Translations under genes and position numbers: made by a program
Shown here: one piece after another, positions 4,937-50,185 of the stretch
Layout of the letters: each line of letters starts with the position of its first letter
Position numbering within the stretch: the first letter of the stretch is position 1
NCBI GenBank assembly: GCA_033763415.1
Contig: JANRKP010000024.1
Location: forward strand, 2,587-66,586
Origin: Candidatus Melainabacteria bacterium
Lineage (GTDB): Bacteria > Cyanobacteriota > Vampirovibrionia > Vampirovibrionales > JAJTHC01
Length of the DNA: 64,000 bases
Reading direction: 5' to 3'
The notes under the pieces: generated by a model
Seen by the model: the letters and a program-made list of their open reading frames with translations, nothing else
Told to the model about the DNA's origin: nothing
The model's database searches: none

Positions 4937-6199
4937 ATGAAGCCCCATCTTGTTTTCTTCCACCAAAACTATCCCGCCCAGTTTGGTCCAATTATTCAGT
5001 TTTTGTTGAAGCATTACGAGGTGGATATCACCTATTTTAGTGAGCATCGACCAAAACCGGTGTTTCCAGGAATGGAGCACCGGTTTTATCGTTCGCACAA
5101 TGTGCCGAAATTTGAAAACCCATACTTTTTTACGCGCTACATTGAGCTGGAATCCCGTGCCATGTACGGCGCCTATTTGGCTTACGAGAAGCAAAAGCCA
5201 CGAGACGCCGACGTGCTGATTGGACATGTGGGCTTTGGCAACCTGATGTTTTTTCACGGAGCCTACCCAGAGATTCCGACCATTGGCTTTTTCGAAATTT
5301 TCTATGACCTCCTCGGCGGGGATCGCCCTGGATTTGAGCCTGCCTTGGAAAACAAGCTTCGGCGGCCCATTCGGAATGCCACCCAACTGCTGGAACTGGA
5401 ATACTGCACCAAGGGGTACTCGCCCACCCGTTATCAGCGCTCCACTTTTCCACAAGCCTACCAGCACAAGCTGCATACTTTGTTTGACGGGGTAGATGTT
5501 TCTCGCTACTCGCCCGGGGAAGTGGGGCATCAGTCCGAACTTCCCTGCACTTGGCCCAAAGACGCCAAAATTGTCACCTATGTGGCTCGTGGATTAGAAT
5601 CCTATCGTGGTTTTGACATTTTTATGGAAATGGCGCATCGTATCTGCCAGGTGCGTAACGATGTCCACTTTGTGATTGCAGGTCGCCCGAAAACACATTA
5701 CGGGCCAGATTTACGCTACATTCAAGAGCCCAGTTTCAAGGAGCACGTCCTCAAACAACACCCGTTTGATTTGTCGCGTTTTCACTTCTTAGATTGGATT
5801 TCAGAATCCGCCTTGGCCGACCTCTTTCGGCTCAGTGCGTGCCATTTTTACTGGACTGTTCCTTTTACCCTCTCCTGGAGCTTTTTCCAGGCGATGGCCA
5901 GTGGCGCACTGATTGTTGGATCAGACACAGAGCCAGTTCGAGACGTACTCATTCACGGAATGAACGGCCTGATGGTCCCTCCCTACGATGTCGACACCAT
6001 GGTCCAAACGGTTCTCTCTGCGCTAGACCACCCACAACACTATCAACCGCTCAGAGAGGCGGCCCGGGATACGGTCGTCAACCAGTACAGTTTTGAGGTT
6101 TGTCTGCCCAAGCTCGCCGATTTTTACCTGTCTGCACTCTCTCCTGCCAGCAGACCCTCGTTACAGCAATCCACACTTGCAGCAGCACCGTCAATCTAA
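4937..6199 (+). CDS. GT-B fold glycosyltransferase (GT4-like, group 1)
   Basis: The C-terminal region FQAMASGALIVGSDTEPVRDVLIHGMNGLMVPPYDVD matches the GT4 nucleotide-sugar binding consensus. The gene is convergent with the T1SS outer-membrane gene. Confidence 0.65.
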   Translation: MKPHLVFFHQNYPAQFGPIIQFLLKHYEVDITYFSEHRPKPVFPGMEHRFYRSHNVPKFENPYFFTRYIELESRAMYGAYLAYEKQKPRDADVLIGHVGFGNLMFFHGAYPEIPTIGFFEIFYDLLGGDRPGFEPALENKLRRPIRNATQLLELEYCTKGYSPTRYQRSTFPQAYQHKLHTLFDGVDVSRYSPGEVGHQSELPCTWPKDAKIVTYVARGLESYRGFDIFMEMAHRICQVRNDVHFVIAGRPKTHYGPDLRYIQEPSFKEHVLKQHPFDLSRFHFLDWISESALADLFRLSACHFYWTVPFTLSWSFFQAMASGALIVGSDTEPVRDVLIHGMNGLMVPPYDVDTMVQTVLSALDHPQHYQPLREAARDTVVNQYSFEVCLPKLADFYLSALSPASRPSLQQSTLAAAPSI

Positions 6200-6282: not shown

Positions 6283-8154
6283 TTAGGGAGCAACTACTTT
6301 TAAGTCGAGCGGTTGGATTTGTTCCGCATTAGCAGCAGGACTTAGCACCTGCTGATCGAGCGCCTGACGCTCCATGGTATCAGAGGCACTGTCCCAGGGT
6401 TTGCTGGCCTGTAGCGCCTGTTGTCGCTCCATTGCAATACGCGTCCGAAGGAAATCAGGGGTAAGCTGACCCGTTTCGTATAGCAGGGCAAGCTGAGCGG
6501 TATTAAAGTTTAAAATAGACGTTTTGTAAGCCAGACGAGCATCGGTCAGCTCTGTTTGCTGTTGCACCACTTCTAGGTTAATGCCCACACCCGTCTTTAA
6601 CCTGGATACGGCAATACGATAGGCTTCTTCCGCTGCAGTTAAACGCTCATCAGCCGCTTTGAGTTGATCGCGGTACTGATTATATTCATAAAACGCCTTG
6701 GCAATTTTCTCCTGAATTTCGTTGAGTTGTAGCTGTTGACGCAGCGTCAACTCAGTCACGCGGGCTTTGGCGGTTTTCATTCCACCCAGAATGCCCACCC
6801 CCATGTTGCGCAGAATATCCACATTAATGCGGCCACCCAACTGATTGACCGCCTTCAGGCTACCGACTTCTGGCCCGACGCCACCCATGTAACTGCCAAC
6901 AGTAATCGTGGGAAAGAGGTCGGCTCGCGCCATTTTGTACTCGGCACTGGCTTGATTAATTTGGGCCAGCAACTCCTGAATGTCCGGCCGTTGCGCTTTA
7001 GCCATTTCAATATAATCAGGCAGTTTCATTGCATCGTCTAAAAAATGCGTGGGACGGATGCGACGAGTCTCTGGCTCGACCTCCATACCAAAGGGCACAT
7101 TTAAGGTTGAGGTAAGCTGAACCTTGGCAAAAGACTCTGAGTTCTTGGCTTTGTAAAGCAAAGACTCTCGTTCGGCACGTTGCGCCACACTTTGCAGGAC
7201 ATCCAACTTTTTAGAAAACCCATGATTGAGACGCTTTTCGTGATAATCCTGCTGCGCTTGAGCTTCCAGTAAAGATTGCTCCGCCACCTCCACGTTCGAC
7301 ATATCGCGCAACATCACATAGTATTCTTTCAGCGCCTGATGCAAATTTTCCTGAAACGCCCGTCGACGGGCTTCCTGCGCAGCCTTGAGCCTATTTTTAG
7401 CAGCAGACACCCTAAAAATGGACTTACCCCCTGTCTGAATGGTGTAATCCAGCGATAAGCGGGGGAAATGCGTCGTGCGCTTCAAATTAATCGGCCGGGA
7501 ACTGAGCACAATCGTTCCACCGTCAAATTTTTCCAGAAAATATTCCCCGCTGATTGAAGGCAATAACTCCGCGTATGCCTGCCACAGACCACCTTTTGTC
7601 TGCTCAACCACAGCATCAGCAATGGCAACGTTCAAGCTCTGAGACTCAATGAGATCAATGACGGCTTCCAGGTTTAAAACCAACACCTGCGCACCCAGGG
7701 TAATTTTGCCATCCGTTACGCTGGAAGGCAAATCTGTCGTGGTAGAGGGCGAAGGCTGCGATGGGGCTGAAGGCTCATAGGGCTGAACTTCGGCTAACGG
7801 TTCAGAGCCCGCCTCTTCTTTAGGTGCCGAGGTAGAGGCCGACGAGCCATTGGACGCCGAAGAGGCCTCCGATTGCGTCGAAACTGGCGACACATTGGGC
7901 TCAATCGGCGCCATCTGCGTTACGGGATCCGCCTCCAATGTTTGTGCTTGGATTGGCATACTAACTGACAAAAATAAAACTGCAAGCAGCACCCCTGTGG
8001 AGGTAAACCGGGTTAAAAGCTGAGTTTTGCGACGCACGATAGTGTTGCCAAGCATTGAATGTTCCCAATCATATTTTACATCGTATGAGGGAGCGGACCG
8101 TAATACCCTCAGCAGATTACTATAAGTCATTGGCCAAAACAACGATAAATACAA
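6283..8154 (-). CDS. TolC-family outer membrane efflux protein (T1SS outer-membrane factor) with an N-terminal signal peptide and an S/P/T-rich linker of about 100 aa. The likely start is the ATG at 8055.
   Basis: Paired outer-membrane-efflux-protein repeat pattern (LNLEAVIDLIESQSLNVAIADAVVEQTKGG..., LYETGQLT...). Signal peptide RRKTQLLTRFTSTGVLLAVLFLSVSMPIQAQT. Last gene of the T1SS operon. Confidence 0.8.
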   Translation of the reverse strand: MYLSLFWPMTYSNLLRVLRSAPSYDVKYDWEHSMLGNTIVRRKTQLLTRFTSTGVLLAVLFLSVSMPIQAQTLEADPVTQMAPIEPNVSPVSTQSEASSASNGSSASTSAPKEEAGSEPLAEVQPYEPSAPSQPSPSTTTDLPSSVTDGKITLGAQVLVLNLEAVIDLIESQSLNVAIADAVVEQTKGGLWQAYAELLPSISGEYFLEKFDGGTIVLSSRPINLKRTTHFPRLSLDYTIQTGGKSIFRVSAAKNRLKAAQEARRRAFQENLHQALKEYYVMLRDMSNVEVAEQSLLEAQAQQDYHEKRLNHGFSKKLDVLQSVAQRAERESLLYKAKNSESFAKVQLTSTLNVPFGMEVEPETRRIRPTHFLDDAMKLPDYIEMAKAQRPDIQELLAQINQASAEYKMARADLFPTITVGSYMGGVGPEVGSLKAVNQLGGRINVDILRNMGVGILGGMKTAKARVTELTLRQQLQLNEIQEKIAKAFYEYNQYRDQLKAADERLTAAEEAYRIAVSRLKTGVGINLEVVQQQTELTDARLAYKTSILNFNTAQLALLYETGQLTPDFLRTRIAMERQQALQASKPWDSASDTMERQALDQQVLSPAANAEQIQPLDLKVVAP

Positions 8155-8203
8155 AACATTTCAATCCAAATTTCATTAGAGAATTGAAGCTAAAACAAAG
8201 TCG

Positions 8204-9472
8204 TTAACTTTTATTGCTCGGATCCCGGAAAGCACGATCCACTTTGACTTGAAGCGGTTCGGTAAAGAAACTGAGAATGGATTTTTCCCGAGTAATAATA
8301 TCGGTGTTCACACTCATTCCGGCGCGCAACGGATACTGTTTTCCGCGATTATCCACCACGGACTGGGCATCCGGCTTAACACGCGCCAAGTAAAAAATAT
8401 GTCCTTCCTCATCGTGCGTGGAAGACGGAGAGATGCTTTCGACCACACCAAAAATGCGCTCAAATTTCTGAATCGGAAACGCATCAAAGCGTAAAGCCGC
8501 CCGCTGACCCGGATGAATGTAGGCCAGATCCTGGTTGGTGATTTTCACTTCCGCCACCAGGGTTGCATCCTGCGGCACAATGGAGAGTAAATCTTCGCCC
8601 GCCCCCACCACATCGCCCGGGCCACGAACCTTTTGCTCGTGAATAATGCCATCAATGGGCGACGTCACCACCTGAAGCTTGCGCGTCAGCTCGTTCCGCT
8701 CCACATCATGGCTCAGGCTTACCACGTCCTTCTCCAGCTGCGTCAGGCGGTTGAGCAGCGTTTCTTGATAGCTGCCCTTGACGTGGCCAATGTCTTCGCG
8801 AGATTTGGCCAAAAACATCTGCCGGGCCTGAATCTCTTCTGCTATCGTACTCAAGTCTCCGCGCTGGTCGATCACCTTTTTTTCAAAATCCTTGTACTCC
8901 AGCTCAGAAAGGCCCCCTTCCTGATAAAGCGCCTTGTATTTTTTGAGCAGCGCTTCGTTGGTTTCCAGTAAGGTCTGCATTTTCTTACTTCGCTGCAACG
9001 CCTCTTGCACACGATGTTGCGCTTCTTCAACCTGAAGATGAGAAGCCCGCAGCTTGGATTCATACGACTGACGGGTGGCATTGAGCCATTCGCCAGAAGT
9101 GCCCGAAGGGAGACGTCCGCCCCTCTCCTGGCCAGTCGTCGCAGCCTGAAGTGCCGCTGCTTCCTGCCGAATCAATGACAGCTCGCCCTGGCTACGCCCC
9201 TGATCAATTCGAGTGCCTTCCGTGTCCAGCTCAAAAAGCACCTGTCCTTTGCGAACCACCTGGTTTTCCGTGACATAAACCTTAATGACCACCCCGTTAA
9301 TCGGGCTCCGAATAGTCCGATACTTACCCATGGGAACCATTTCGCCCACCCCTGGCACCGATTCTTCCAGGTTGCCAAAGGCCGACCACACTCCCAAGCC
9401 CAGAAAGCCCAGGGTGAGTAAAGCAAAGAAGACAAACGAAACGTAAACAATACTCTTCTGCGATTGTTTCAT
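8204..9472 (-). CDS. HlyD-family type I secretion membrane fusion / periplasmic adaptor protein
   Basis: N-terminal TM anchor, long coiled-coil middle and a C-terminal beta domain typical of HlyD. The ATG at 9472 has a ggaga RBS. Sits between the ABC and TolC genes. Confidence 0.85.
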   Translation of the reverse strand: MKQSQKSIVYVSFVFFALLTLGFLGLGVWSAFGNLEESVPGVGEMVPMGKYRTIRSPINGVVIKVYVTENQVVRKGQVLFELDTEGTRIDQGRSQGELSLIRQEAAALQAATTGQERGGRLPSGTSGEWLNATRQSYESKLRASHLQVEEAQHRVQEALQRSKKMQTLLETNEALLKKYKALYQEGGLSELEYKDFEKKVIDQRGDLSTIAEEIQARQMFLAKSREDIGHVKGSYQETLLNRLTQLEKDVVSLSHDVERNELTRKLQVVTSPIDGIIHEQKVRGPGDVVGAGEDLLSIVPQDATLVAEVKITNQDLAYIHPGQRAALRFDAFPIQKFERIFGVVESISPSSTHDEEGHIFYLARVKPDAQSVVDNRGKQYPLRAGMSVNTDIITREKSILSFFTEPLQVKVDRAFRDPSNKS

Positions 9473-9494
9473 CACAGGGGGGATCTCCAGACGG

Positions 9495-11762
9495 TTAGGA
9501 ATGGGCAACAGAGGGACGCAGCGGGGTCACCGCAGAAACAGGGGCAGGATTGGCCTCCTGTTGATACAGGTGATAATAAAAACCTTGCGCCGCCATTAAA
9601 TCCTCGTAACGACCCTGCTCGACAATGTGCCCATCGTGCAACACCAAGATCAGGTCCGCCAGTTGATGCGCAGGCTGAAAGTCGGTTACCAGCAAGCAGG
9701 TCCGTTCGCGATAACGGGTCATGAGTTGCTGCAACACAGCGCCTTTCAAGGCGGGCTCCAGGGCATTAATCGCCTCATCCAGGATGAGAATGGACGGATT
9801 TCTCAAAAACGTTCGCGCAAGGGAAATTCTGGCCGCCTGCCCACCCGACAGGTTGGTTCCAAGCGCCTCGACCGGGGTTTCAAACCCATTGGGCAAAGTG
9901 TAAACGTACTGGTCAAGCTGCGCCATTGAGGCGGCGTCTACAATGGCTTTCATCGGCGCGTTGGGGTAGCCCACCGCAATATTATCTCGAATGGTGCCAC
10001 TGAACATGGCGACCTTTTGCACCGCCACGCCCACGTGATCTCGCAGACTTTCAACATCCACGTCGCCGGTATTCACGCCGTCTACCAGGATGTAACCCTC
10101 CGTTGGCGAATAGAGCCGCTGAAGAAGACGAATTAAAGTGGTTTTACCCGCCCCGCTGCGTCCCGCCAAAATGACCTTTTGCCCCGGTTGAATGTGGCAG
10201 CTCACATGCTTGAGCACCATCGGCGCTTCGGGCGAATAACGAAAGCCCACATCCACCAGCTGAATATCGCCTTTCACCGAATCAAGCAGCACTTCACCAC
10301 CTGCGCCAAGCGCTGTGGCATCGGCATCTGCCTGCATCTGACGGAACTGCTCCAGCGAACCGAGCGATTCATTGAATTGGGCCAGGTTTTCCAGCAGCTT
10401 TTGCGCATTGCTGATAATCTGACGACTCAGCATATTAATGGCAATGTAAACCCCAAAGCTGATCACGCCCTCCAGCACGCGGTGGGCGCCAAAGTACAAG
10501 GTCACCAGCATACTCAGTAGGGCTAAAAATTGCTGCACATCAGCCATCTTCAAGCGATCAAAGCGTGGGCCGTAGCTTTTGGGCAACACCTCTTCCTTAA
10601 ATCGTTCGCGAATAGAACGCTTGATGTGCCCTTCCGCGTCCAAGGATTTCAACGTCTCGGCGTGCTCCAACACTTCCGAAAGGCGCAAGCGGTACTGACG
10701 CTGTTCTTTTTCAAAGGCCAAACTTTTTCGTTTTAAATTGGGCACCGACCAGAACATTTGAACGGCAATGGGCACCAGCGATAGCAGGGAAATCACCGCC
10801 AACTGAAAGTCCAGCATCAGCAGAAAGCCCACAATCACGGCAGAAAAAAGCATGTCCAGCGAAGTCATCAGCAGGGTTTGCCCCACCACCTGGTTCAGCC
10901 GCGTCAGTGTTCCAAAATGATCCGCCAGCAGGCGCGCCTTGTCCTTCAATGTATCTTTCAACTGAAGATGAAACAAACCATCTAAAAAGAGATCCACGGT
11001 TAAGCGGTCCACTTGGTTAACCACATAGCTGAGCACAAACACCCGCAAGTAGCGCACCAAAAACTGGAACGTCAGCACCAAAATCATGCCAATGGCCATC
11101 ACATCCAACGTGGCCAGGTTTTGGCGTCCAAACACCCGATCAAAAATAACCATGTAAAATAGCGGCACGGCCAGAGTAAACACCTGCGCCATAAAGGAGG
11201 CCATAAACATTTGAGTGCTAAACAGGCCATTGGCTAAAAACAGGCCCGCATACCAGCGCAGACTGAATGCATCGGGCTGATTGACGCTCCAGGTGCGCGG
11301 CTGCGGCAGAATACGCAACGTCCTAACCGCATCTGGATGCTCGCACTGATGTTGCTCGATTTCGGTGGTTTTAGGGCCGATTTGTGCGTGTAACGCAGCT
11401 CCCTGGCGTCGAGTGACCCAATAGGCTTCGGTACCCATTTGCACCACTCTGGGAAATGGCGCTTTCAGTAGCGCGTTCCAAGACAGCGTCTCGATTTTCG
11501 CTGAAAAACCCAGATCTTGAAGATGCTGAGCCAAGCTCTCCAAGGATTGAACGTCGCCCCGGGCCACATCCGCAAAACGATGGCCCCCGCGATGACGCAG
11601 TGCTTTTTGAACGTGCCGATAACATGCCTGCAAAACACTGTCCCACGAACCCACTGCCAGCGAGGAGTCCGGTAGCGACTGCGACGCGCTGAGGTGCTCT
11701 GGAGAACCAAAAGCCCGCGTTGTTTCTAGCGCGATGCCGTGGGCAGAATTTTTTGCAGCCAT
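9495..11762 (-). CDS. Type I secretion ABC transporter (HlyB-like, ATPase/permease), possibly with an N-terminal non-catalytic C39-like domain
   Basis: Walker A GRSGAGKTT, signature LSGGQ, Walker B ILILDEA, six-TM exporter core. About 150 aa lie N-terminal to the TMD with no catalytic Cys evident. Confidence 0.9.
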   Translation of the reverse strand: MAAKNSAHGIALETTRAFGSPEHLSASQSLPDSSLAVGSWDSVLQACYRHVQKALRHRGGHRFADVARGDVQSLESLAQHLQDLGFSAKIETLSWNALLKAPFPRVVQMGTEAYWVTRRQGAALHAQIGPKTTEIEQHQCEHPDAVRTLRILPQPRTWSVNQPDAFSLRWYAGLFLANGLFSTQMFMASFMAQVFTLAVPLFYMVIFDRVFGRQNLATLDVMAIGMILVLTFQFLVRYLRVFVLSYVVNQVDRLTVDLFLDGLFHLQLKDTLKDKARLLADHFGTLTRLNQVVGQTLLMTSLDMLFSAVIVGFLLMLDFQLAVISLLSLVPIAVQMFWSVPNLKRKSLAFEKEQRQYRLRLSEVLEHAETLKSLDAEGHIKRSIRERFKEEVLPKSYGPRFDRLKMADVQQFLALLSMLVTLYFGAHRVLEGVISFGVYIAINMLSRQIISNAQKLLENLAQFNESLGSLEQFRQMQADADATALGAGGEVLLDSVKGDIQLVDVGFRYSPEAPMVLKHVSCHIQPGQKVILAGRSGAGKTTLIRLLQRLYSPTEGYILVDGVNTGDVDVESLRDHVGVAVQKVAMFSGTIRDNIAVGYPNAPMKAIVDAASMAQLDQYVYTLPNGFETPVEALGTNLSGGQAARISLARTFLRNPSILILDEAINALEPALKGAVLQQLMTRYRERTCLLVTDFQPAHQLADLILVLHDGHIVEQGRYEDLMAAQGFYYHLYQQEANPAPVSAVTPLRPSVAHS

Positions 11763-12607
11763 GTGTGTTTTGCCTTCTTACTACTGACATCCGATTGCGA
11801 CAGTCGAGCCACTTGCGCCCGTTCTGGCAACGCACAATCGTTAACGCGTTTTTCCAAAGAGACGGTGGCCAAAGCCATTTGCCGTTGCAGCCATTGATCA
11901 AAGAGTTGATCTCGAATTTTGGAAGACAGCGCCTGGGTCAACGTCATTTGCTCCAGACGGTAAAGCCTGGTCATTAACCACTTTCCGGGCTGGACGCTAA
12001 ACGGACTGGACACCTGACCAGGCGTCAGCGCCAGTAAGCGCTCTCGAAAAGCAGGATGCAAACTCAACACGGTCACCGGGCCAATCATACCGCCCTGGTC
12101 TGCGTTATAGCCTTTTGAATGGCTTAGCGCAAGCTGGTAAAAATCCTGGTGCTGCTCCGTAAGCTGCACAAACAACTGTTGCGCCAACGCCGATTCCGTC
12201 ACCATGATGGCGCCAAAAATAACCCGATCATAACCCGCCTTTTGAGACAGAAAACGCTCTTGAACTGCGGCATCTGGAATAACCACCCGCTTTAGACGGT
12301 TCAGGGCTTCTTTTTGAGCCAAATCCGAACGAAAAGACTCAACCGTATGGTGCTTTCGGCGCAACCACTGCTCAAACGCCTCTGCCGTGGTTAAACGGTG
12401 CTTCTTGCAGATGGCATGCATCCGTTGCTCGGCAAGGCTCCAGTCGGGATAAATACCGTATTCATCTAGCTTTTTTGCTAAAAAGAGCGGCTTGGCAATG
12501 CCCATCTCAACAGAGGCCAGCAAATGACGCTCCTCTAACTGAGACAGCGCCGTCTCTAACGGGGACCACTCGTCCCACAAACGAAGAAAGTATGAATTCT
12601 CTTGCAC
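11726..12607 (-). CDS. Parvulin (PpiC)-type PPIase-domain protein, SurA/PrsA-like, putative chaperone
   Basis: C-terminal segment DQGGMIGPVTVLSLHPAFRERLLALTPGQVSSPFSVQPGKWLM resembles the parvulin fold consensus (GGdlGwf...l.pGe.S.pv.t..G.hii). Its 3' end overlaps the start of the ABC gene by about 37 bp. Confidence 0.45.
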   Translation of the reverse strand: MQENSYFLRLWDEWSPLETALSQLEERHLLASVEMGIAKPLFLAKKLDEYGIYPDWSLAEQRMHAICKKHRLTTAEAFEQWLRRKHHTVESFRSDLAQKEALNRLKRVVIPDAAVQERFLSQKAGYDRVIFGAIMVTESALAQQLFVQLTEQHQDFYQLALSHSKGYNADQGGMIGPVTVLSLHPAFRERLLALTPGQVSSPFSVQPGKWLMTRLYRLEQMTLTQALSSKIRDQLFDQWLQRQMALATVSLEKRVNDCALPERAQVARLSQSDVSSKKAKHTWLQKILPTASR

Positions 12608-12912
12608 GGTGCGTGAACTATTCCTTTAGTGAGCGCGAGGGAGCGGATTACCGACTGGCTGCATCAAGGACTGTGTTTTTTCCAAAGTGGAGAGCCCTTT
12701 AATCATCCATAAAAAATCGCAGACGTCAAAATTGCGTTGATATTTGACACCTTGGTTGGTAACAAAAGAGGGTCGAACATTTACAAACAAAGTATACAAT
12801 CTGCAGATCCAGGACTTAAAAGACAACACTCCTGGAGCCCAAAGCGGAGAACCAGGAGTGTTGAAAAGAAGTGCTCTTACAGCGTTAGCTAAAACACTGT
12901 ACCAGCATTGAC

Positions 12913-15900
12913 TTAGCCGAGGGTGAAGGTTTCGCCGCCGACAATGTCTGTGTTTTCTAGAACGATGGCGCTACCGCCGTCATCCAGAATGATGTGCTCA
13001 ACCGTGTTGTCGATCACGCTGATGGTATTACCAGTGCCATCGAAGGTCACCAGCAAGTCATCGGCAAACGTGTCGCCATCGGCATCCACGAAGGAGAAGC
13101 TGACATCGCCAGTGTAGTTGTTGATGAACAGAATGTCATCGCCACCGGCCGTATCAGTAATGGTCTGCTCAAAGTTGTTCAGTGAGCCACCGGAGAACTC
13201 GTACCAGTAGGCATCGTTTCCGGCTTCACCGTTCAACTCATCGTCACCATTGCTGGCCACGAACAGATCGAAGATGCCGTCGCCACCGTTAATGGTGTCG
13301 TCGCCATTGCCACCAAACAGGATGTCGGAGCCTTCGCCACCATTCAACAGGTCGTTGCCAGAGCCACCATCTAGGATGTCAGAGCCTTCGCCACCGTTGA
13401 TGGTGTCGTTGCCAGCGCCACCGTTGAGGTAGTCATCGCCTGCATCTCCGTTGATGGAATCCGCACCGCCGTTGCCCAGAACGATGTCGTTGTCAGCGCC
13501 ACCAAAGATGATGTCGCCGTCCACACCGCCGTGAATGGTGTCGTTGCCTTCACCACCGAGGATGGAATCGTTACCACCGTTACCGAAGATGAGATCATCG
13601 CCGGAATCACCCAGAATGGTATCATCGCCAGCTTCGCCGTAGATGCTGTCGTTGCCAGCGCCGCCTTCGATCGAATCGGCACCTGAGCCACCTTCGATGA
13701 AGTCATTGCCGTCACCACCCAGGATGGTGTCGTTGCCAGCACCACCGTCGATGGAATCATCGCCAGTGCCGCCCAGCAAGGAATCCTGGCCGTCTTCACC
13801 GATGATGGTATCGTTGCCAGCGCCACCGTCTACGGTGTCGTTGCCATCGGCTTGAGGAATGCCGATACCGTTATCAGAGTTGATGAAGTCGTTGCCGTCG
13901 CCACCAAAAATGGAGTCGTTGCCCGCTTCACCGTAAATGGTGTCGTTGCCTTCGCCACCCAGAATGGTGTCATCGCCAAAGTGACCCAGGATGTAGTCAT
14001 TGTCCAGGCCACCGTCGATGAAGTCGTTGCCGGTCCAGCCATCAATGGTATCGTTGCCACTGCCGCCGAGCAGAGAATCGCCAGCGTCATTACCCGTACC
14101 ACCATTGATGTAGTCGTTGCCAGCGCCACCCAGAATGGTATCGCTGCCTTCGCCACCCAGTAGGCTATCGTTGCCGTCTTCGCCCAGGATGGAGTCATCG
14201 CCAGCGCCACCGTCTACAGTGTCGTTGCCATCGGCTTCAGGAATACCGATACCGCTATCAGAGTTGATGATATCGTTGCCGTCACCACCCAGAATGGAAT
14301 CATCGCCCGCTTCACCGAAGATGGTGTCGTTGCCGGTTCCACCCAAAATGGTGTCATTGCCGAAGTGGGCCAGAATGTAGTCGTTATCGGCGCCACCATC
14401 AATGCTGTCGTTGCCGAACCAGCCATCAATGGTGTCGTTGCCGTTACCACCTAACAGAACGTCTCCGGCATCATCATCACCAGTACCACCGTTGATGTAA
14501 TCGTTGCCGTCGCCACCGTCAATGGTGTCGCTGCCCAGACCACCGTAAATGGTGTCGTTGCCATCTTCACCAAAGATGGAATCATCGCCACCTTCGCCAA
14601 AGATATTGTCGTTGCCGGTTCCGCCAAAGATGGTGTCGTTGCCTTCGCCGCTGTCACCATAGATGGTATCGTTGCCAGCGCCACCGAGGATGGAGTCGTC
14701 ATCATCACCACCGTGGATGAAATCGTTGCCGTCTTCACCAAGGATCGTGTCGTTGCCAGCGCCACCGTCTACAGTGTCGTTGCCATCGGCTTCAGGAATG
14801 CCGATACCGCTGTCAGAATTGATGAAGTCGTTGCCGTCGCCACCGTCGATGGAGTCGTTGCCCGCTTCACCGAAAATGGTGTCGTTGCCAGCGCCACCCA
14901 GAATGGTGTCATCACCAAAGTGGGCCAGAATGTAGTCGTTATCGGCGCCACCATCAATGCTGTCGTTACCGAACCAGCCATCAATGGTATCGTTGCCGTT
15001 ACCGCCTAACAGAACGTCTCCATCGTCGGCATTTCCGGTACCGCCATTGATGTAGTCGTTGCCGTCGCCACCGTCAATGGTGTCGCTGCCCAAACCACCG
15101 TAAATGGAATCATTACCGGCATCGCCGAAGATGGAATCATCGCCGTCGTCGCCGAAAATGGTATCGTTGCCTTCGCCACCAAACACGGTATCGTTGCCGT
15201 TACCGCCAGAGATGGAATCGTTACCGGCGTTACCAACGATAGAGTCGTCATCGTCGCCACCAAAGATGGTATCGTTGCCAGCGCCACCAATAATGGTATC
15301 GTTGCCAGCGCCGCCCAGCAGGCTATCGTTGCCCGTGCCAGCGCCACCAAACACCTGAATGTCATCGCCGTTGATGAGATCGTTACCGTCACCACCGTCG
15401 ATGGTGTCGTTGCCTTGCTCACCAAAGAGGTTATCGTTACCGGCACCGCCCAAAATGGAATCGTTGCCTTCGTAGCCCCAAACGGTATCGTTGCCAGCGC
15501 CACCCAATACGGTGTCGTTACCGGTCCAGGCATCGATAAAGTCGTTACCGTTGCCGAGGTTGGCGTAATCATCGCCAGCGCCACCGTTCACGTTATCGTT
15601 GCCATCCAAGCTGAAGATCACATCATTGCCGTCGCCGCCATTGATGGTGTCGTTCAGGTTGCCGCCAAAAATGTAGTCTTGGCCGTCGCTTCCAAGAATG
15701 GAGTCGCCGCCTTCAACACCCATCAGGATGTCATCGCCGCCGAGACCATTGATGGAGTCGTTACCGGCGCCACCCCAAATGAAATCGTTGGCCGAAGAGC
15801 CAACCAGGTTGTCGTTACCAGACGTACCAAAGGTTCCCAGTGCAAATGCCTGAGATAACAGCGACAGAACACCTGCGTCTGCGCTGTAGAGGAGGGTTAA

Positions 15901-15927
15901 GAAAGAACTAAGAGCTGGAAATGCCAT
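12913..15927 (-). CDS. RTX (hemolysin-type calcium-binding nonapeptide repeat) protein, 1004 aa, predicted T1SS substrate
   Basis: Dozens of GGxGxDxUx repeats (GGAGNDTIFG, GGDGNDYING...). Repeat-free C-terminal region of about 110 aa, acidic and Gly-rich, typical of a T1SS secretion signal. Located directly upstream of the T1SS genes. Confidence 0.9.
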   Translation of the reverse strand: MAFPALSSFLTLLYSADAGVLSLLSQAFALGTFGTSGNDNLVGSSANDFIWGGAGNDSINGLGGDDILMGVEGGDSILGSDGQDYIFGGNLNDTINGGDGNDVIFSLDGNDNVNGGAGDDYANLGNGNDFIDAWTGNDTVLGGAGNDTVWGYEGNDSILGGAGNDNLFGEQGNDTIDGGDGNDLINGDDIQVFGGAGTGNDSLLGGAGNDTIIGGAGNDTIFGGDDDDSIVGNAGNDSISGGNGNDTVFGGEGNDTIFGDDGDDSIFGDAGNDSIYGGLGSDTIDGGDGNDYINGGTGNADDGDVLLGGNGNDTIDGWFGNDSIDGGADNDYILAHFGDDTILGGAGNDTIFGEAGNDSIDGGDGNDFINSDSGIGIPEADGNDTVDGGAGNDTILGEDGNDFIHGGDDDDSILGGAGNDTIYGDSGEGNDTIFGGTGNDNIFGEGGDDSIFGEDGNDTIYGGLGSDTIDGGDGNDYINGGTGDDDAGDVLLGGNGNDTIDGWFGNDSIDGGADNDYILAHFGNDTILGGTGNDTIFGEAGDDSILGGDGNDIINSDSGIGIPEADGNDTVDGGAGDDSILGEDGNDSLLGGEGSDTILGGAGNDYINGGTGNDAGDSLLGGSGNDTIDGWTGNDFIDGGLDNDYILGHFGDDTILGGEGNDTIYGEAGNDSIFGGDGNDFINSDNGIGIPQADGNDTVDGGAGNDTIIGEDGQDSLLGGTGDDSIDGGAGNDTILGGDGNDFIEGGSGADSIEGGAGNDSIYGEAGDDTILGDSGDDLIFGNGGNDSILGGEGNDTIHGGVDGDIIFGGADNDIVLGNGGADSINGDAGDDYLNGGAGNDTINGGEGSDILDGGSGNDLLNGGEGSDILFGGNGDDTINGGDGIFDLFVASNGDDELNGEAGNDAYWYEFSGGSLNNFEQTITDTAGGDDILFINNYTGDVSFSFVDADGDTFADDLLVTFDGTGNTISVIDNTVEHIILDDGGSAIVLENTDIVGGETFTLG
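13400..15350. repeat. Long imperfect tandem super-repeats inside the RTX gene, units of about 384 and 555 bp
   Basis: Near-identical DNA blocks (ggcttcaggaatgccgataccgctatcagagttgatga...) recur at about 13849, 14233 and 14788. Protein-level blocks of 128 to 185 aa are repeated three times. Confidence 0.8.
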
Positions 15928-16534: not shown

Positions 16535-17419
16535 TTGTTGGCAATGAAAATTTTAATAACCATGGCCCATTTCTACCGTTTTCAGCCAGGCGCGGGTTAT
16601 GGTTCATCCCATGCGTCAGCAAAAAGAAGGATACAGTCGCTTGCACAAGCCATTTTGGCGTTTCATCAACACTTTGGACCCCACCAGGCAGAACTTAACC
16701 ACGCCCAGCGTCTTGCGAACCCGGTCAATCAAGCGCATCAGCACGAGATTAAAATCGTCATCTGGACGGATGGCAAACACCACCTGCTGGATCAACTCCC
16801 ACTCAGCCAGAATCTCTACGAACACCGGATTTGGCACGGAGACCCCAAAGCCCTGGGTTTTGCCTGCCAGGGCTTTTTGGGAGAATGCGCGGGCGATTAC
16901 GATTACTATGGCTTTATCGAAGATGATCTGGTCATTCAGGATGCCTGGTTTTTTGAGAAGCTGCGCCGCTTCAACGCCCTGGTAGCGCCCGATACACTGT
17001 TGCAGCCCAACCGGTTTGAGCTGTCCAGCCAAGGCCCCGTCTATAAATTTTACATCGATGGCCCGCTACACGAGCGCGCCAGTGAGCCCTTCCAAAATCG
17101 CCAAGAAAAAACGCACCTTCAGGCAAAAATAATGGGACAGCCCCTTCAATTTTATCGCCCCAGCAACCCACACGCAGGCTGCTACTTTTTAAACCAAGCG
17201 CAACTTCGGCACTGGATGGCCCATCCAGTTTTCCTCCAACAGGCGCCCGTGTTTATTGGCCCACTGGAAACAGCCGCAACCATGGGCATTATGCGCGCGT
17301 TTCGGGTGTACAAACCGCACCCAAGCAACGCCCACTTTCTGGAATTGTTGCACGCCTGCCCGAGTTTTATTCACCAGGTAGGACAAGTCATCCAGCAGCC
17401 AGAAGGCGCAACCACCTGA
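16535..17419 (+). CDS. hypothetical protein (294 aa), neighbour of rmlC
   Basis: Intact ORF with no confident family. The start may be the ATG at 16544. Confidence 0.4.
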   Translation: MLAMKILITMAHFYRFQPGAGYGSSHASAKRRIQSLAQAILAFHQHFGPHQAELNHAQRLANPVNQAHQHEIKIVIWTDGKHHLLDQLPLSQNLYEHRIWHGDPKALGFACQGFLGECAGDYDYYGFIEDDLVIQDAWFFEKLRRFNALVAPDTLLQPNRFELSSQGPVYKFYIDGPLHERASEPFQNRQEKTHLQAKIMGQPLQFYRPSNPHAGCYFLNQAQLRHWMAHPVFLQQAPVFIGPLETAATMGIMRAFRVYKPHPSNAHFLELLHACPSFIHQVGQVIQQPEGATT

Positions 17420-17961
17420 AAAAAATTATTGGGCGCTTCGGCAAAACCGGGCAAATGCTGGTCTTTTTCAGAGACGATGGGACAATCCACGCCCCATTCA
17501 ATGGCCAGAGTGGCGTCGTCCCAACGGATACCGGCTTCTAAATGCGGAGCATACTCTCCCGTGGTTTTGTAGTGCACCAGCGCTTGCTCACTGAGCACGA
17601 CAAATCCATGCGCAAAGCCCGGCGGCACATACAACATGGCGTGCGCCCGGTCATCCAGTCGAGCCGAAACCCAACGCCCATAGCTAGGCGAATCCACCCG
17701 AATATCGACAGCAACATCCAAAATTTCGCCCACCGCACAGTGCACCAGCTTGCCTTGCGCCGCCGGATTCAACTGGTAATGGAGCCCGCGAAGCACATTT
17801 TTACGAGACCACGACATGTTGTCTTGCACAAAATGGGGCAAAGACGCGTGTTGCTCAAACACGCTTTGACGGTAGCTTTCTAAAAAATAACCGCGTTCAT
17901 CTTCAAAGACGCGCGGCGTCATTAGTAAAACCTCAGGAATGGCCAGTGGCGTAAACTGCAC
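17371..17961 (-). CDS. rmlC: dTDP-4-dehydrorhamnose 3,5-epimerase
   Basis: RmlC cupin motifs RGLHYQ, KLVHCAVGEILDVAVDIR and LYVPPGFAHGF. Length 196 aa. Confidence 0.9.
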   Translation of the reverse strand: MQFTPLAIPEVLLMTPRVFEDERGYFLESYRQSVFEQHASLPHFVQDNMSWSRKNVLRGLHYQLNPAAQGKLVHCAVGEILDVAVDIRVDSPSYGRWVSARLDDRAHAMLYVPPGFAHGFVVLSEQALVHYKTTGEYAPHLEAGIRWDDATLAIEWGVDCPIVSEKDQHLPGFAEAPNNFFQVVAPSGCWMTCPTW

Positions 17962-49525: not shown

Positions 49526-50185
49526 ATGCTTTTTGCCCCAATGGCTCGCAGGAGTATGGGCTTCCTGCCGGAGCCACTCTTTCGAGAGCAACCACAACCA
49601 CGTTTTTCAAAATCAGTCCAACCCACTTCCTCGCCGGAGCATCCGCCGGAGGCACGCACCCTGGCGCCTGTGTGGAATCAGGTAGACACACTGCTACAAC
49701 CTTTCCTGAGCACGCCTTTTACAGGCAGCACCTCCTGGCCGGGCGTTTTACAGCAAGACGCCACCCCGTTTGCAAACAGTGAACAGTTTCAACAAGTCGC
49801 CTCATTTCAATCCATAACCGATGAAACAGGACACACCTGGCAGCAGAGCGCCGCCGCGCAACGCGCCCAGCGAGACGCTCAGCCAGCCACATTCCAATTG
49901 ACCTACCAACAGGCGCACTACCCATCTTCCGACCAGCCCGAAGCAGCGCCACTACCAGCAGGGTATGTGTTATCTGCCACCGGCACGGAGGCCACCTGGC
50001 CTGCTCAGAAAAAGGTTTTGGGGAACCCCTGGCAACTGACCCAAACTTGGCTGGAACAGGGCAAAATGACAGCCCGGCAACAATGGCAAGCCACCCGTAA
50101 CAGCATTAATGGGGTGGGCAAACACCTGGATCAGCTCATGCAACAACTGTTTGAGCCCACCCAACAAAACGCCTCACCCCTGTAA
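49526..50185 (+). CDS. hypothetical Gln-rich protein (219 aa)
   Basis: Intact ORF. No family recognized. Confidence 0.35.
   Translation: MLFAPMARRSMGFLPEPLFREQPQPRFSKSVQPTSSPEHPPEARTLAPVWNQVDTLLQPFLSTPFTGSTSWPGVLQQDATPFANSEQFQQVASFQSITDETGHTWQQSAAAQRAQRDAQPATFQLTYQQAHYPSSDQPEAAPLPAGYVLSATGTEATWPAQKKVLGNPWQLTQTWLEQGKMTARQQWQATRNSINGVGKHLDQLMQQLFEPTQQNASPL

What the first reader, a model, noticed from the sequence alone, without database searches (positions are those of the whole stretch)
6283..15927. Complete co-linear T1SS locus with its own RTX substrate
Five genes run in one orientation with short or negative intergenic distances, from the RTX gene at 15927 down through TolC at 6283. Both the secretion machinery and the cargo are therefore encoded together, which makes this a testable secretion unit. 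The C-terminal 110 residues of the RTX protein are repeat-free and acidic, as T1SS signals are.
Basis: partly seen in the sequence, partly recalled or inferred. Interest (0 to 1): 0.55.

Follow-up and report, generated by a model that had tools for sequence, protein, structure and literature searches.

The report
Type I secretion operon plus chaperone-like gene
A Melainabacteria genome segment encodes a complete type I secretion machine beside its probable cargo, a very acidic calcium-binding repeat protein; this is an ordinary arrangement, but a conserved, apparently inactive prolyl-isomerase-like gene in the operon may be a dedicated cargo chaperone.

Summary
The five minus-strand genes are real. 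They are RTX protein (12913-15927), parvulin-like protein (11726-12607), ABC exporter (9495-11762), HlyD adaptor (8204-9508) and TolC (6283-8055).

Two junctions are not short. RTX to parvulin is 305 nt and holds a strong hairpin. HlyD to TolC is about 148 nt.

The type I secretion reading holds:
- HlyD passes the curated type I model.
- The ABC scores best against HlyB-type models. Its N-terminal domain has the C39-like fold but lacks the catalytic His.
- In 25 related Vampirovibrionia loci, ABC, HlyD and TolC are adjacent in 22. An RTX-type gene is nearby in 15.
- These neighbours, 240-2460 aa long, share a ~90-aa non-repeat C-terminal domain that the window protein also has.

The less ordinary part is the parvulin-like gene:
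- It sits directly upstream of the ABC in 16 of 25 loci and is fused to the ABC in two proteins.
- It has no signal peptide and a SurA/PrsA-like fold.
- All three parvulin catalytic residues are replaced.
- The cargos have almost no proline.

I infer a cytosolic cargo chaperone or adaptor. The same gene trio was described in cyanobacteria in 2011 as "bacteriocin clusters". Overall: an ordinary system with one under-studied conserved component.

The parts
12913..15927 (-). RTX repeat protein, 1004 aa, the probable cargo. It has about 69 nonapeptide repeats (residues 34-908). Composition: 25% Gly, 18% Asp, 0 Lys, 0 Arg, 0 Cys, 4 Pro. No catalytic domain was detected.
   Evidence: Pfam HemolysinCabind with 33 stretches, E 3e-187. 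Composition and motif counts. 27-nt and 384-nt tandem periodicity. It is the only RTX-type ORF in the 64-kb window.
12913..13212 (-). Non-repeat acidic C-terminal domain of the RTX protein (about residues 906-1004). It is the probable secretion signal region and a divergent relative of Pfam HCBP_related.
   Evidence: An HMM built only from the tails of RTX neighbours in other loci matches it at 21.9 bits. 1000 shuffles gave mean 1.6 and maximum 10.9. Tails from relatives hit PF06594 at or just below its cutoff.
12817..12863 (-). 12-bp perfect hairpin followed by GUCUUUU, 50 nt downstream of the RTX stop codon. It is a probable intrinsic terminator or attenuator between the cargo gene and the machinery genes.
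   Evidence: Sequence. Fold of -26.5 kcal/mol, z = -4.47, with 0 of 200 shuffles as stable. The consensus scan missed it because the loop is longer than its limit.
12702..12729 (-). Weak sigma-70-like site (TTGACG-16-GATGAT) in the RTX-parvulin spacer. It is a possible internal promoter for the four machinery genes.
   Evidence: Consensus scan only. The number of sites in the region (12) is not above the shuffled expectation of 8.0 +/- 2.9.
11726..12607 (-). Parvulin-like protein, 293 aa, with SurA/PrsA-like architecture (N-terminal and C-terminal helical module around a parvulin domain). It has no signal peptide, and the catalytic residues are replaced. It is the proposed cytosolic cargo chaperone or adaptor.
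   Evidence: Pfam Rotamase 34.2 bits, cutoff 21.7. AlphaFold model with pLDDT 78 matches PrsA, SurA, PEB4 and YacD over the full length. Catalytic positions H8/C40/H84 of E. coli PpiC are A/L, G and L in the family. Directly upstream of the ABC in 16 of 25 loci. Fused to the ABC in P0217 and P0227.
9495..11762 (-). ABC exporter, 755 aa: N-terminal C39-like domain, six-helix transmembrane domain and nucleotide-binding domain.
   Evidence: Pfam ABC_membrane and ABC_tran. Best NCBIfam models are TIGR01846 HlyB-type (357 bits) and TIGR03375 (341 bits), both below cutoff. Best bacterial solved relatives are HlyB and PCAT1.
11268..11666 (-). C39-like N-terminal domain of the ABC (about residues 33-165).
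   Evidence: AlphaFold model with pLDDT 79. Top Foldseek PDB hits are the ComA peptidase domain 5xe8, the HlyB C39-like domain 3zua, 6mpz and PCAT1. The window protein has no Pfam C39 hit, and only 4 of 15 relatives hit it. No Cys or His is invariant in the 21-sequence family alignment. The window has Tyr where C39 peptidases have the catalytic His.
8204..9508 (-). HlyD-type membrane fusion protein, 434 aa from the longest ORF. The start may be the ATG at 9472. There is one N-terminal transmembrane helix.
   Evidence: TIGR01843 type_I_hlyD at 249.9 bits, above the 208.65 cutoff. Pfam HlyD_3, HlyD_D23 and Biotin_lipoyl_2. Hydrophobic segment near residue 20.
6283..8055 (-). TolC-family outer membrane channel, 590 aa, with a signal peptide and a Ser/Pro-rich N-terminal linker. 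The ORF extends upstream to a TTG at 8154.
   Evidence: Pfam OEP, two stretches, E 1.4e-35. TIGR01844 at 98.7 bits, below cutoff. The 590-aa form is the exact NCBI protein MDX2085315.1, 'TolC family protein'.

Best explanation
This is a type I secretion system of the RTX-exporting, HlyB/HlyD/TolC kind, encoded next to its cargo.

Proposed mechanism:
1. The 1004-aa RTX protein is made in the cytosol. It stays unfolded there because its roughly 69 calcium-binding nonapeptides need extracellular calcium to fold.
2. Its non-repeat C-terminal ~95 residues are recognised by the ABC-HlyD inner-membrane complex.
3. The non-catalytic C39-like domain of the ABC helps hold the unfolded repeats.
4. The chain is threaded C-terminus first through ABC, HlyD and TolC in one ATP-driven step.
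5. Outside the cell it folds into a beta-roll. Having no enzyme domain, it most likely acts as a surface-layer or adhesin-type structural protein.

A hairpin after the cargo gene probably keeps machinery expression below cargo expression.

The parvulin-like protein encoded directly upstream of the ABC is proposed to be a cytosolic SurA/PrsA-like holdase or adaptor for the cargo, not a working prolyl isomerase.

Shown here: gene identities, domain folds, loss of catalytic residues, conserved gene order, the shared C-terminal domain, and natural fusions.
Inferred: export of this protein by this machine, the chaperone role, the extracellular function, and the attenuator.
For: Machinery:
- HlyD is above the curated type I cutoff. 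The ABC and TolC score best against type I models.
- The ABC N-domain has the C39/C39-like fold without a conserved Cys/His pair. The window has Tyr at the His position.

Cargo link:
- In 25 distinct Vampirovibrionia loci carrying this ABC family, ABC, HlyD and TolC are adjacent in 22. An RTX-type gene lies within the fetched flank in 15. The genes outside the block differ between loci.
- Neighbours of 240 to 2460 aa share a ~90-aa non-repeat C-terminal domain. An HMM built without the window matches the window tail at 21.9 bits, and 0 of 1000 shuffles reach this.
- No K or R occurs in the first 45 residues, so a Sec signal peptide is unlikely.
- No double-glycine leader peptide ORF lies in the spacers.

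Chaperone idea:
- The parvulin-like gene is directly upstream of the ABC in 16 of 25 loci. In L011 it sits next to the RTX gene instead.
- Two natural fusions exist, parvulin-C39-like-ABC (P0217) and parvulin-ABC (P0227). P0227 lies in an operon with HlyD and TolC and no separate parvulin gene.
- There is no signal peptide. The fold is SurA/PrsA-like.
- The catalytic His/Cys/His positions are replaced throughout the family, including in Nostoc.
- The cargos are nearly proline-free: 4 of 1004 residues here, 0 of 2460 in L021 and 0 of 1249 in L019.

Precedent:
- Synechocystis Sll1180/Sll1181 export the S-layer protein Sll1951 (Agarwal 2018, known here only from the title in the reference list of PMC11053131).
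Against: - Nothing here shows secretion.
- The ABC and TolC are below the curated NCBIfam cutoffs.
- The window tail matches the shared C-terminal domain only moderately and has no Pfam hit of its own.
- 10 of 25 related loci have no RTX gene within the fetched flank, so adjacency is frequent but not obligatory.
- A Cys (C47) lies within a few residues of the catalytic position of the C39-like domain, and the alignment register is uncertain.
- 5 loci with enough upstream sequence lack the parvulin gene, so it is not essential to every member.
- Loss of the two His residues does not by itself prove loss of isomerase activity (from general knowledge of Pin1 mutants, not tested here).
- The two fusions rest on single metagenome contigs.
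- The cargo's exact sequence was not found in the protein collection, so its annotated start is unverified.
Confidence: 0.75

Rival explanations
1. The four machinery genes form a bacteriocin or double-glycine-leader peptide exporter, as the same rotamase-ABC-HlyD trio was interpreted in cyanobacteria. The RTX gene would then be an unrelated neighbour.
For: - Wang et al. 2011 (PMC3140520) classed rotamase + long C39-ABC + HlyD clusters as bacteriocin clusters (groups I, II and VI).
- NCBI names the window ABC 'peptidase domain-containing ABC transporter'.
- Longer relatives carry the cyclic-nucleotide-binding N-terminal domain typical of the cyanobacterial long type.
- Some Gastranaerophilales relatives keep both a Cys and a His in the C39-like domain.
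Against: - The window domain has no Pfam C39 hit and has Tyr at the His position.
- No double-glycine leader ORFs lie in the spacers.
- RTX-type genes with a shared C-terminal domain recur next to the module in 15 of 25 loci.
- The ABC scores about 95 bits higher against the HlyB-type model than against bacteriocin exporter models.
Confidence: 0.08
2. The system exports the RTX protein, but the parvulin-like protein is a working prolyl isomerase or a general foldase. It would be co-transcribed and act on the transporter subunits or on other proteins rather than on the cargo.
For: - The Pfam Rotamase match is above cutoff.
- The parvulin fold is well predicted.
- Dual-His loss does not always abolish parvulin activity (general knowledge).
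Against: - All three catalytic positions are replaced family-wide by A/L, G and L.
- It is fused to the ABC N-terminus in two proteins.
- In L011 it moves with the RTX gene rather than with the ABC.
- Its closest relatives in a collection of 72,556 plasmid records are all cyanobacterial. The two neighbourhoods inspected (Nostoc, Calothrix) place it beside an ABC/HlyD pair.
Confidence: 0.12
3. The ABC, HlyD and TolC proteins form a small-molecule or lipid efflux pump. The RTX protein would leave the cell by another route or stay inside.
For: - The ABC also matches MsbA-type and multidrug models at lower scores.
- ABC and TolC are below the type I curated cutoffs.
- Eukaryotic ABCB proteins top the PDB sequence search because each holds two matching halves.
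Against: - HlyD is above the type I cutoff and far below the EmrA and RND adaptor cutoffs.
- A C39-like N-terminal domain is present.
- The link to RTX genes is conserved.
- The RTX N-terminus lacks the positive charge of a Sec signal.
Confidence: 0.03

Closest known systems
E. coli haemolysin system HlyB-HlyD-TolC with HlyA (RTX type I secretion, ABC with a C39-like domain)
   Same: - Half-size ABC with an N-terminal non-catalytic C39-like domain.
- HlyD-type adaptor and TolC channel.
- Cargo with GGxGxDxUx repeats followed by a non-repeat C-terminal region.
- The cargo gene lies upstream of the transporter genes, with a hairpin between them.
   Different: - TolC is encoded in the operon here.
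- There is no acyltransferase.
- The cargo has no toxin domain and no Lys or Arg.
- An extra parvulin-like gene precedes the ABC.
- In the C39-like domain the His is lost here, whereas HlyB has lost the Cys (general knowledge).
- Sequence similarity to HlyB is modest: 232 bits over the transmembrane and ATPase parts only.
Synechocystis PCC 6803 Sll1180/Sll1181/Slr1270 exporting the RTX S-layer protein Sll1951 (Agarwal et al. 2018, cited in PMC11053131)
   Same: - It comes from the sister lineage (Cyanobacteria).
- An ABC and HlyD pair exports an S-layer protein, as the paper's title states.
- That Sll1951 is RTX-type, acidic and has no enzyme domain is from my own knowledge.
- This is the most likely functional analogue.
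   Different: - I could not verify that sll1180 has an adjacent parvulin-like gene or belongs to Wang's group I. A search of that paper's supplements found nothing.
- The cargo and TolC genes are not in that operon (general knowledge).
Cyanobacterial 'bacteriocin' gene clusters, groups I, II and VI (Wang, Fewer and Sivonen 2011, PMC3140520)
   Same: - The same trio in the same order: rotamase-domain 'SurA' gene, ABC with a C39-type domain, then HlyD.
- I confirmed this order in Nostoc PCC 7120 pCC7120alpha. In Calothrix NIES-22 plasmid1 the parvulin-ABC pair is followed by an intervening gene, and the HlyD gene is on the opposite strand.
- The Nostoc parvulin homolog shows the same loss of catalytic residues and the same lack of a signal peptide.
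   Different: - The window ABC lacks the cyclic-nucleotide-binding domain of the 'long type'.
- Its C39-like domain looks non-catalytic.
- TolC is in the operon.
- The neighbour is an RTX protein, not short double-glycine precursors.
SecB-dependent HasA secretion by HasDEF of Serratia marcescens
   Same: It is a type I system that needs a cytosolic chaperone to keep the cargo unfolded. It is the only chaperone mentioned in the held first 300,000 characters of the 2021 Chem Rev review of type I secretion (PMC8277102).
   Different: - SecB is a general chaperone encoded elsewhere.
- HasA has no RTX repeats.
- HasD has no N-terminal domain.
SurA, PrsA, PEB4 and YacD parvulin-type chaperones
   Same: The fold and domain order match: an N-terminal and C-terminal helical chaperone module around a parvulin domain. 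SurA's first parvulin domain is likewise inactive (general knowledge).
   Different: - SurA, PrsA and PEB4 work outside the cytoplasmic membrane and carry a signal peptide or lipobox.
- This family has neither and is found fused to the cytosolic N-terminus of an ABC exporter.

Membership tests
Type I secretion system, RTX-exporting class (HlyB/HlyD/TolC type) | Half-size ABC exporter (transmembrane domain plus ATPase) of the HlyB/LssB type | tested here: met
   Pfam ABC_membrane and ABC_tran. The best NCBIfam models are TIGR01846 (357 bits) and TIGR03375 (341 bits); the next best scores 263 bits. All are below the curated cutoffs of 725 and 693, so it is a divergent member.
Type I secretion system, RTX-exporting class (HlyB/HlyD/TolC type) | N-terminal C39-like domain with the papain-like fold | tested here: met
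   AlphaFold model with pLDDT 79. The top Foldseek hits are ComA 5xe8, HlyB C39-like domain 3zua, 6mpz and PCAT1, with probability 1.0, E about 2e-3 and TM 0.5-0.59. hhalign to C39-annotated relatives gives 94.7% probability.
Type I secretion system, RTX-exporting class (HlyB/HlyD/TolC type) | The C39-like domain is catalytically dead (Cys/His pair incomplete) | tested here: inconclusive
   The window has Tyr at the His position (EAYWVTRR), and no Cys or His is invariant in 21 relatives. There is no Pfam C39 hit. However, Cys47 lies within about 4 residues of the catalytic position and the register is uncertain. Activity was not assayed.
Type I secretion system, RTX-exporting class (HlyB/HlyD/TolC type) | HlyD-family membrane fusion protein | tested here: met
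   TIGR01843 at 249.9 bits, above the 208.65 cutoff and covering model positions 8-421 of 422.
Type I secretion system, RTX-exporting class (HlyB/HlyD/TolC type) | TolC-family outer membrane channel | tested here: met
   Pfam OEP with two stretches, E 1.4e-35. Signal-peptide-like N-terminus from Met34. NCBI names it a TolC family protein. TIGR01844 is below cutoff (98.7 versus 225.15).
Type I secretion system, RTX-exporting class (HlyB/HlyD/TolC type) | Cargo with GGxGxDxUx repeats upstream of an uncleaved C-terminal secretion signal | tested here: met
   There are 69 nonapeptide matches and then a 96-99-residue repeat-free acidic tail. The tail is homologous to the tails of RTX neighbours in other loci. 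Signal function itself is not testable here.
Type I secretion system, RTX-exporting class (HlyB/HlyD/TolC type) | Cargo actually exported in an ABC/HlyD/TolC-dependent way | not testable with these tools
   This needs genetics and exoproteomics. The organism is known only from metagenome bins.
Peptidase-containing ABC transporters / cyanobacterial bacteriocin clusters (Wang 2011, group I) | Active C39 peptidase domain with catalytic Cys and His | tested here: not met
   There is no Pfam Peptidase_C39 hit even at E up to 10 on the isolated domain. The His position holds Tyr.
Peptidase-containing ABC transporters / cyanobacterial bacteriocin clusters (Wang 2011, group I) | Short precursor peptides with a double-glycine leader encoded nearby | tested here: not met
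   The small ORFs in the 305-nt and 607-nt spacers show no leader-like sequences. Only the spacers were searched.
Peptidase-containing ABC transporters / cyanobacterial bacteriocin clusters (Wang 2011, group I) | Gene order: rotamase gene, ABC, HlyD | tested here: met
   Window, Nostoc PCC 7120 plasmid and the description in PMC3140520. The Calothrix plasmid has the parvulin-ABC pair, but its HlyD gene lies beyond an intervening gene on the opposite strand.
Peptidase-containing ABC transporters / cyanobacterial bacteriocin clusters (Wang 2011, group I) | Cyclic-nucleotide-binding (CAP_ED) domain at the ABC N-terminus ('long type') | tested here: not met
   The window ABC (755 aa) starts directly with the C39-like domain. 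The 820-917-aa relatives carry about 110 extra residues that hit PF00027 (27.6 bits, cutoff 27.5, in P0010).
Parvulin peptidyl-prolyl isomerases (PF00639) | Parvulin fold | tested here: met
   Pfam Rotamase at 34.2 bits, cutoff 21.7. Isolated parvulin domains align with TM 0.65-0.85 relative to the target.
Parvulin peptidyl-prolyl isomerases (PF00639) | Catalytic residues (His8, Cys40 or Asp, His84 in E. coli PpiC numbering) | tested here: not met
   The alignment with E. coli PpiC (sequence written from memory) shows A/L, G and L at these positions in all 17 distinct family members. There is no invariant His, Cys or Asp in the domain apart from D155 in the DF motif. The Nostoc homolog shows the same pattern.
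SurA/PrsA-type extracytoplasmic chaperones | N-terminal and C-terminal helical chaperone module flanking the parvulin domain | tested here: met
   Foldseek gives full-length alignments (224-281 columns) to PrsA, SurA, PEB4 and YacD at E 1e-8 to 1e-7. The global TM is low (0.3-0.44), which I attribute to differences in domain orientation.
SurA/PrsA-type extracytoplasmic chaperones | Export signal (signal peptide or lipobox) and periplasmic or extracellular location | tested here: not met
   Family members have no hydrophobic N-terminal segment. The N-terminal residues are modelled as a short beta hairpin. Natural fusions join it to the cytosolic N-terminus of the ABC.

The most novel reading that the evidence does not exclude
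The parvulin-like protein may be a dedicated cytosolic component of a Cyanobacteria/Vampirovibrionia type of type I secretion system. It would be a catalytically dead SurA/PrsA-like holdase or adaptor that captures unfolded, nearly proline-free RTX cargo and delivers it to the C39-like domain of the ABC. If so, the widespread cyanobacterial 'group I bacteriocin clusters' are at least partly RTX/S-layer secretion systems with a fourth, previously unrecognised subunit.
Probability: 0.4. Interest if true: 0.6.

Novelty: new variant of a known kind. Interest (0 to 1): 0.38.

Why it matters
The core locus gives a clean, testable secretion unit in Melainabacteria (Vampirovibrionia). This is a barely cultivated sister group of Cyanobacteria that includes predatory and gut-associated lineages, so cell-surface and secreted proteins probably matter there.

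The conserved parvulin-like gene has more general value. Type I secretion models contain no dedicated cytosolic chaperone; SecB for HasA is the only exception mentioned in the held part of the review I searched. How very long, unfolded, acidic RTX chains are kept secretion-competent is only partly explained by the C39-like domain.

Three features point to a missing accessory factor shared by two sister lineages: a family-wide inactive parvulin, placement next to or fused with the ABC, and cargos that lack proline. This would also change how the cyanobacterial 'bacteriocin' clusters are read.

Tried and rejected
- The word-index search with the parvulin-like protein alone found only itself. An alignment query and an exhaustive HMMER search were needed.
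- The exact look-up of the ABC in the contig index found nothing. Exact look-ups of the RTX and HlyD sequences as I delimited them also found nothing, so their annotated starts are unverified.
- A sequence profile of the C39-like domain against PDB gave no meaningful hit. A single relative's domain also gave none. Only structure prediction plus Foldseek identified the fold.
- The promoter and terminator consensus scans showed no enrichment and missed the hairpin after the RTX gene.
- Small ORFs in both spacers showed no double-glycine leader peptides.
- The supplements of Wang 2011 do not mention sll1180 or sll1181. I therefore could not link the experimentally studied Synechocystis system to the rotamase-containing cluster class.
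- Literature searches for a prolyl isomerase in type I secretion found only incidental co-mentions.
- I considered that the hydrophobic N-terminus of the RTX protein might be a Sec signal or a cleaved leader. This is unlikely because it has no positive charge and the ABC domain lacks the His. It is not excluded.
- I considered assembly collapse of the repeats. The 384-nt units are only 80% identical, so collapse is unlikely.

Full report
**What is in the sequence**

Five long ORFs occupy the minus strand from 15927 to 6283. Opposite-strand genes bound them: a GT4 glycosyltransferase at 4937-6199 and an unassigned ORF at 16535-17419. Pfam and NCBIfam identify them as follows.

| Gene | Coordinates | Key evidence |
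|---|---|---|
| RTX repeat protein | 12913-15927 | HemolysinCabind, 33 stretches, E 3e-187 |
| PPIC-type rotamase (parvulin) protein | 11726-12607 | Rotamase 34.2 bits, cutoff 21.7 |
| ABC exporter | 9495-11762 | ABC_membrane + ABC_tran; best NCBIfam models TIGR01846 HlyB-type 357 bits and TIGR03375 341 bits, both below cutoff |
| HlyD adaptor | 8204-9508 | TIGR01843 249.9 bits, cutoff 208.65 |
| TolC-family channel | 6283-8055 | OEP, E 1.4e-35 |

NCBI names attached to identical proteins place the contig in a 'Candidatus Melainabacteria bacterium' metagenome bin. The rest of the window holds ordinary chromosomal genes.

**Corrections to the observation**

- The spacer between the RTX gene and the parvulin-like gene is 305 nt. 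It holds a perfect 12-bp hairpin followed by GUCUUUU (-26.5 kcal/mol, z -4.47). This is likely a terminator or attenuator of the kind found between cargo and transporter genes in other RTX operons.
- The parvulin and ABC genes overlap by 37 nt. ABC and HlyD overlap by 14 nt, or are 22 nt apart if HlyD starts at the ATG at 9472.
- The HlyD-TolC gap is 148 nt. The TolC start that gives a proper signal peptide, and that equals NCBI protein MDX2085315.1, is 8055.
- The repeat-free tail is 96-99 residues. The last 110 residues hold 24 D+E and no K or R.

**The cargo**

- The RTX protein has 69 nonapeptide matches between residues 34 and about 908.
- Its DNA shows 27-nt periodicity and a 384-nt higher-order repeat.
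- Its composition is extreme: 25% Gly, 18% Asp, 10% Asn, no Lys, no Arg, no Cys and four Pro.
- No other domain is detected, so it is a structural beta-roll protein rather than an enzyme or toxin.
- It is the only RTX-type ORF in the window.

**Related loci**

The ABC has about 28 relatives at 36-48% identity, nearly all from Melainabacteria/Vampirovibrionia bins. I fetched their neighbourhoods and classified ORFs with phmmer and a motif count. Among 25 distinct loci:

- ABC, HlyD and TolC are adjacent in 22.
- The parvulin-like gene lies directly upstream of the ABC in 16. It is 1 kb upstream in one more locus, and next to the RTX gene instead in L011.
- An RTX-type gene lies within the fetched flank in 15. 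L013 (Vampirovibrio chlorellavorus) was counted through its C-terminal domain.
- Genes outside this block differ from locus to locus, so the block is the conserved unit.

**A shared C-terminal domain**

The RTX neighbours range from 240 to 2460 aa and have different repeat architectures. They still share a ~90-aa non-repeat C-terminal domain.

- An HMM built from ten such tails, excluding the window and its closest relative, scores the window tail at 21.9 bits. 1000 composition-preserving shuffles gave mean 1.6 and maximum 10.9.
- That tail is the only hit among the window's ORFs.
- The tails of relatives hit Pfam HCBP_related (PF06594) at or just under its cutoff. The window tail does not.

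A common C-terminal module on otherwise dissimilar neighbours is what a shared secretion signal region would look like.

**The ABC N-terminal domain**

- Sequence profiles failed to identify it.
- An AlphaFold model built from 15 relatives (pLDDT 79) matches the ComA peptidase domain, the HlyB C39-like domain, LahT and PCAT1 as top PDB hits.
- Only 4 of 15 relatives reach Pfam Peptidase_C39, and the window protein does not.
- The 21-sequence alignment has no invariant Cys or His in this domain.
- The window has Tyr where C39 peptidases carry the catalytic His.
- A Cys (C47) lies within a few residues of the catalytic position, but the register is uncertain. I therefore call inactivity probable rather than shown.
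- No double-glycine leader ORFs lie in the spacers.
- Most longer relatives have an extra N-terminal cyclic-nucleotide-binding domain that the window protein lacks.

**The parvulin-like protein**

- It has no signal peptide.
- Its model (pLDDT 78) aligns over its full length with PrsA, SurA, PEB4 and YacD chaperones. That is a parvulin domain embraced by N-terminal and C-terminal helices.
- The three catalytic positions of E. coli PpiC (His8, Cys40, His84) are A/L, G and L throughout the family. The PpiC sequence used for this comparison was written from memory.
- An exhaustive HMMER search found 108 cluster representatives at E ≤ 1e-30.
- Two of these are natural fusions to this same ABC family. 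P0217 is parvulin-C39-like-ABC and P0227 is parvulin-ABC.
- P0227 sits in a fusion-HlyD-TolC operon with no separate parvulin gene.
- The cargos nearly lack proline: 4 of 1004 residues here, 0 of 2460 in L021 and 0 of 1249 in L019.

Together these points argue for a cytosolic holdase or adaptor acting with the ABC, not an isomerase. This is inference.

**Relation to what is known**

- A tblastn of the parvulin-like protein against 72,556 plasmids hit only cyanobacterial records.
- In Nostoc PCC 7120 pCC7120alpha the order is peptidylprolyl isomerase, peptidase-domain ABC (975 aa), HlyD. In Calothrix the parvulin-ABC pair is followed by an unnamed gene, with the HlyD gene beyond it on the opposite strand.
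- The Nostoc homolog shows the same missing catalytic residues and the same lack of a signal peptide.
- This is the arrangement Wang et al. 2011 described as bacteriocin cluster groups I, II and VI, with a 'SurA' rotamase gene of unknown role (PMC3140520).
- In Synechocystis, Sll1180/Sll1181 export the S-layer protein Sll1951, according to the title of Agarwal 2018 in a reference list. I could not confirm that this pair belongs to the rotamase-containing class.
- The held part of the 2021 review of type I secretion mentions no isomerase-type factor. SecB for HasA is the only chaperone it mentions.

**Verdict**

This is a divergent but complete RTX-type type I secretion locus with its probable cargo, which is an ordinary kind of system. 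Its distinguishing feature is a conserved, apparently inactive, cytosolic SurA/PrsA-like protein. That feature is shared with cyanobacteria and was already noticed there as a gene neighbour, but it has never been explained.

Noticed in passing
window 12913-15927 (-): The 1004-aa RTX protein has no lysine or arginine at all, against 213 Asp+Glu. Cargo candidates in related loci have few basic residues, but none has zero.
   Followed up: partly
window 15793-15927 (-), residues 1-45; L003 4544-8368 (-): The RTX proteins of the window and of its closest relative share a hydrophobic, uncharged N-terminal segment (P.L...LLYS....L..LLSQ...LG.F) ahead of the first repeat. Other cargo candidates lack it. 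It could be a surface-anchoring or retention element.
   Followed up: no
window 13789-14590: A 384-nt (128-aa) higher-order repeat, 2.1 copies at 80% identity, lies on top of the 27-nt nonapeptide period. This indicates recent internal duplication.
   Followed up: no
P0004-P0016, P0020, P0023-P0026 (relatives of the window ABC); L005 6631-9186: Most relatives are 820-917 aa and carry an extra N-terminal divergent cyclic-nucleotide-binding domain (PF00027, 27.6 bits in P0010). The window ABC and three others lack it.
   Followed up: partly
L005, L012, L014, L029 (Gastranaerophilales): In one Gastranaerophilales subgroup the C39-like domain keeps both a Cys and a His at candidate catalytic positions. 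L005, the locus of one such ABC (P0010), has no RTX gene in its flank. L012, L014 and L029, which I did not link to particular ABC proteins, lack both an RTX gene and the parvulin gene. This may reflect a switch between peptide-cleaving and RTX-exporting forms within one family.
   Followed up: partly
L042 10001-12694 (JGI 3300056827); P0217: Natural fusions join the parvulin-like protein to the N-terminus of the ABC exporter. One keeps the C39-like domain and one lacks it. L042 has the order fusion, HlyD, TolC with 4-nt overlaps.
   Followed up: yes
L011 16774-21767: In one Vampirovibrionales bin the parvulin-like gene sits directly upstream of the RTX gene, 2 kb away from the ABC-HlyD-TolC genes. 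There the ABC lacks the C39-like domain (587 aa).
   Followed up: no
L017, L018: Two bins labelled 'uncultured Gammaproteobacteria' carry the Vampirovibrionia-type module with TolC inverted, followed by two small (283-286 aa) RTX proteins with the shared tail. This suggests a wrong taxonomic label or horizontal transfer.
   Followed up: no
window 4937-6199 (+), 17371-17961 (-): The locus is flanked by a GT4 glycosyltransferase and a dTDP-4-dehydrorhamnose 3,5-epimerase. These are cell-surface polysaccharide genes that could relate to anchoring of a surface protein.
   Followed up: no
window 50174-54324 (-): Two adjacent, slightly overlapping half-size ABC exporter genes (682 and 722 aa) have no adaptor or TolC gene beside them. 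They are probably a heterodimeric exporter unrelated to this locus.
   Followed up: no
L001, L002: Identical copies of the parvulin-like gene occur on short contigs from two other sequencing runs (SRR24236065, DRR729083). Both contigs break inside the RTX gene, as expected for repeat-driven assembly fragmentation.
   Followed up: no
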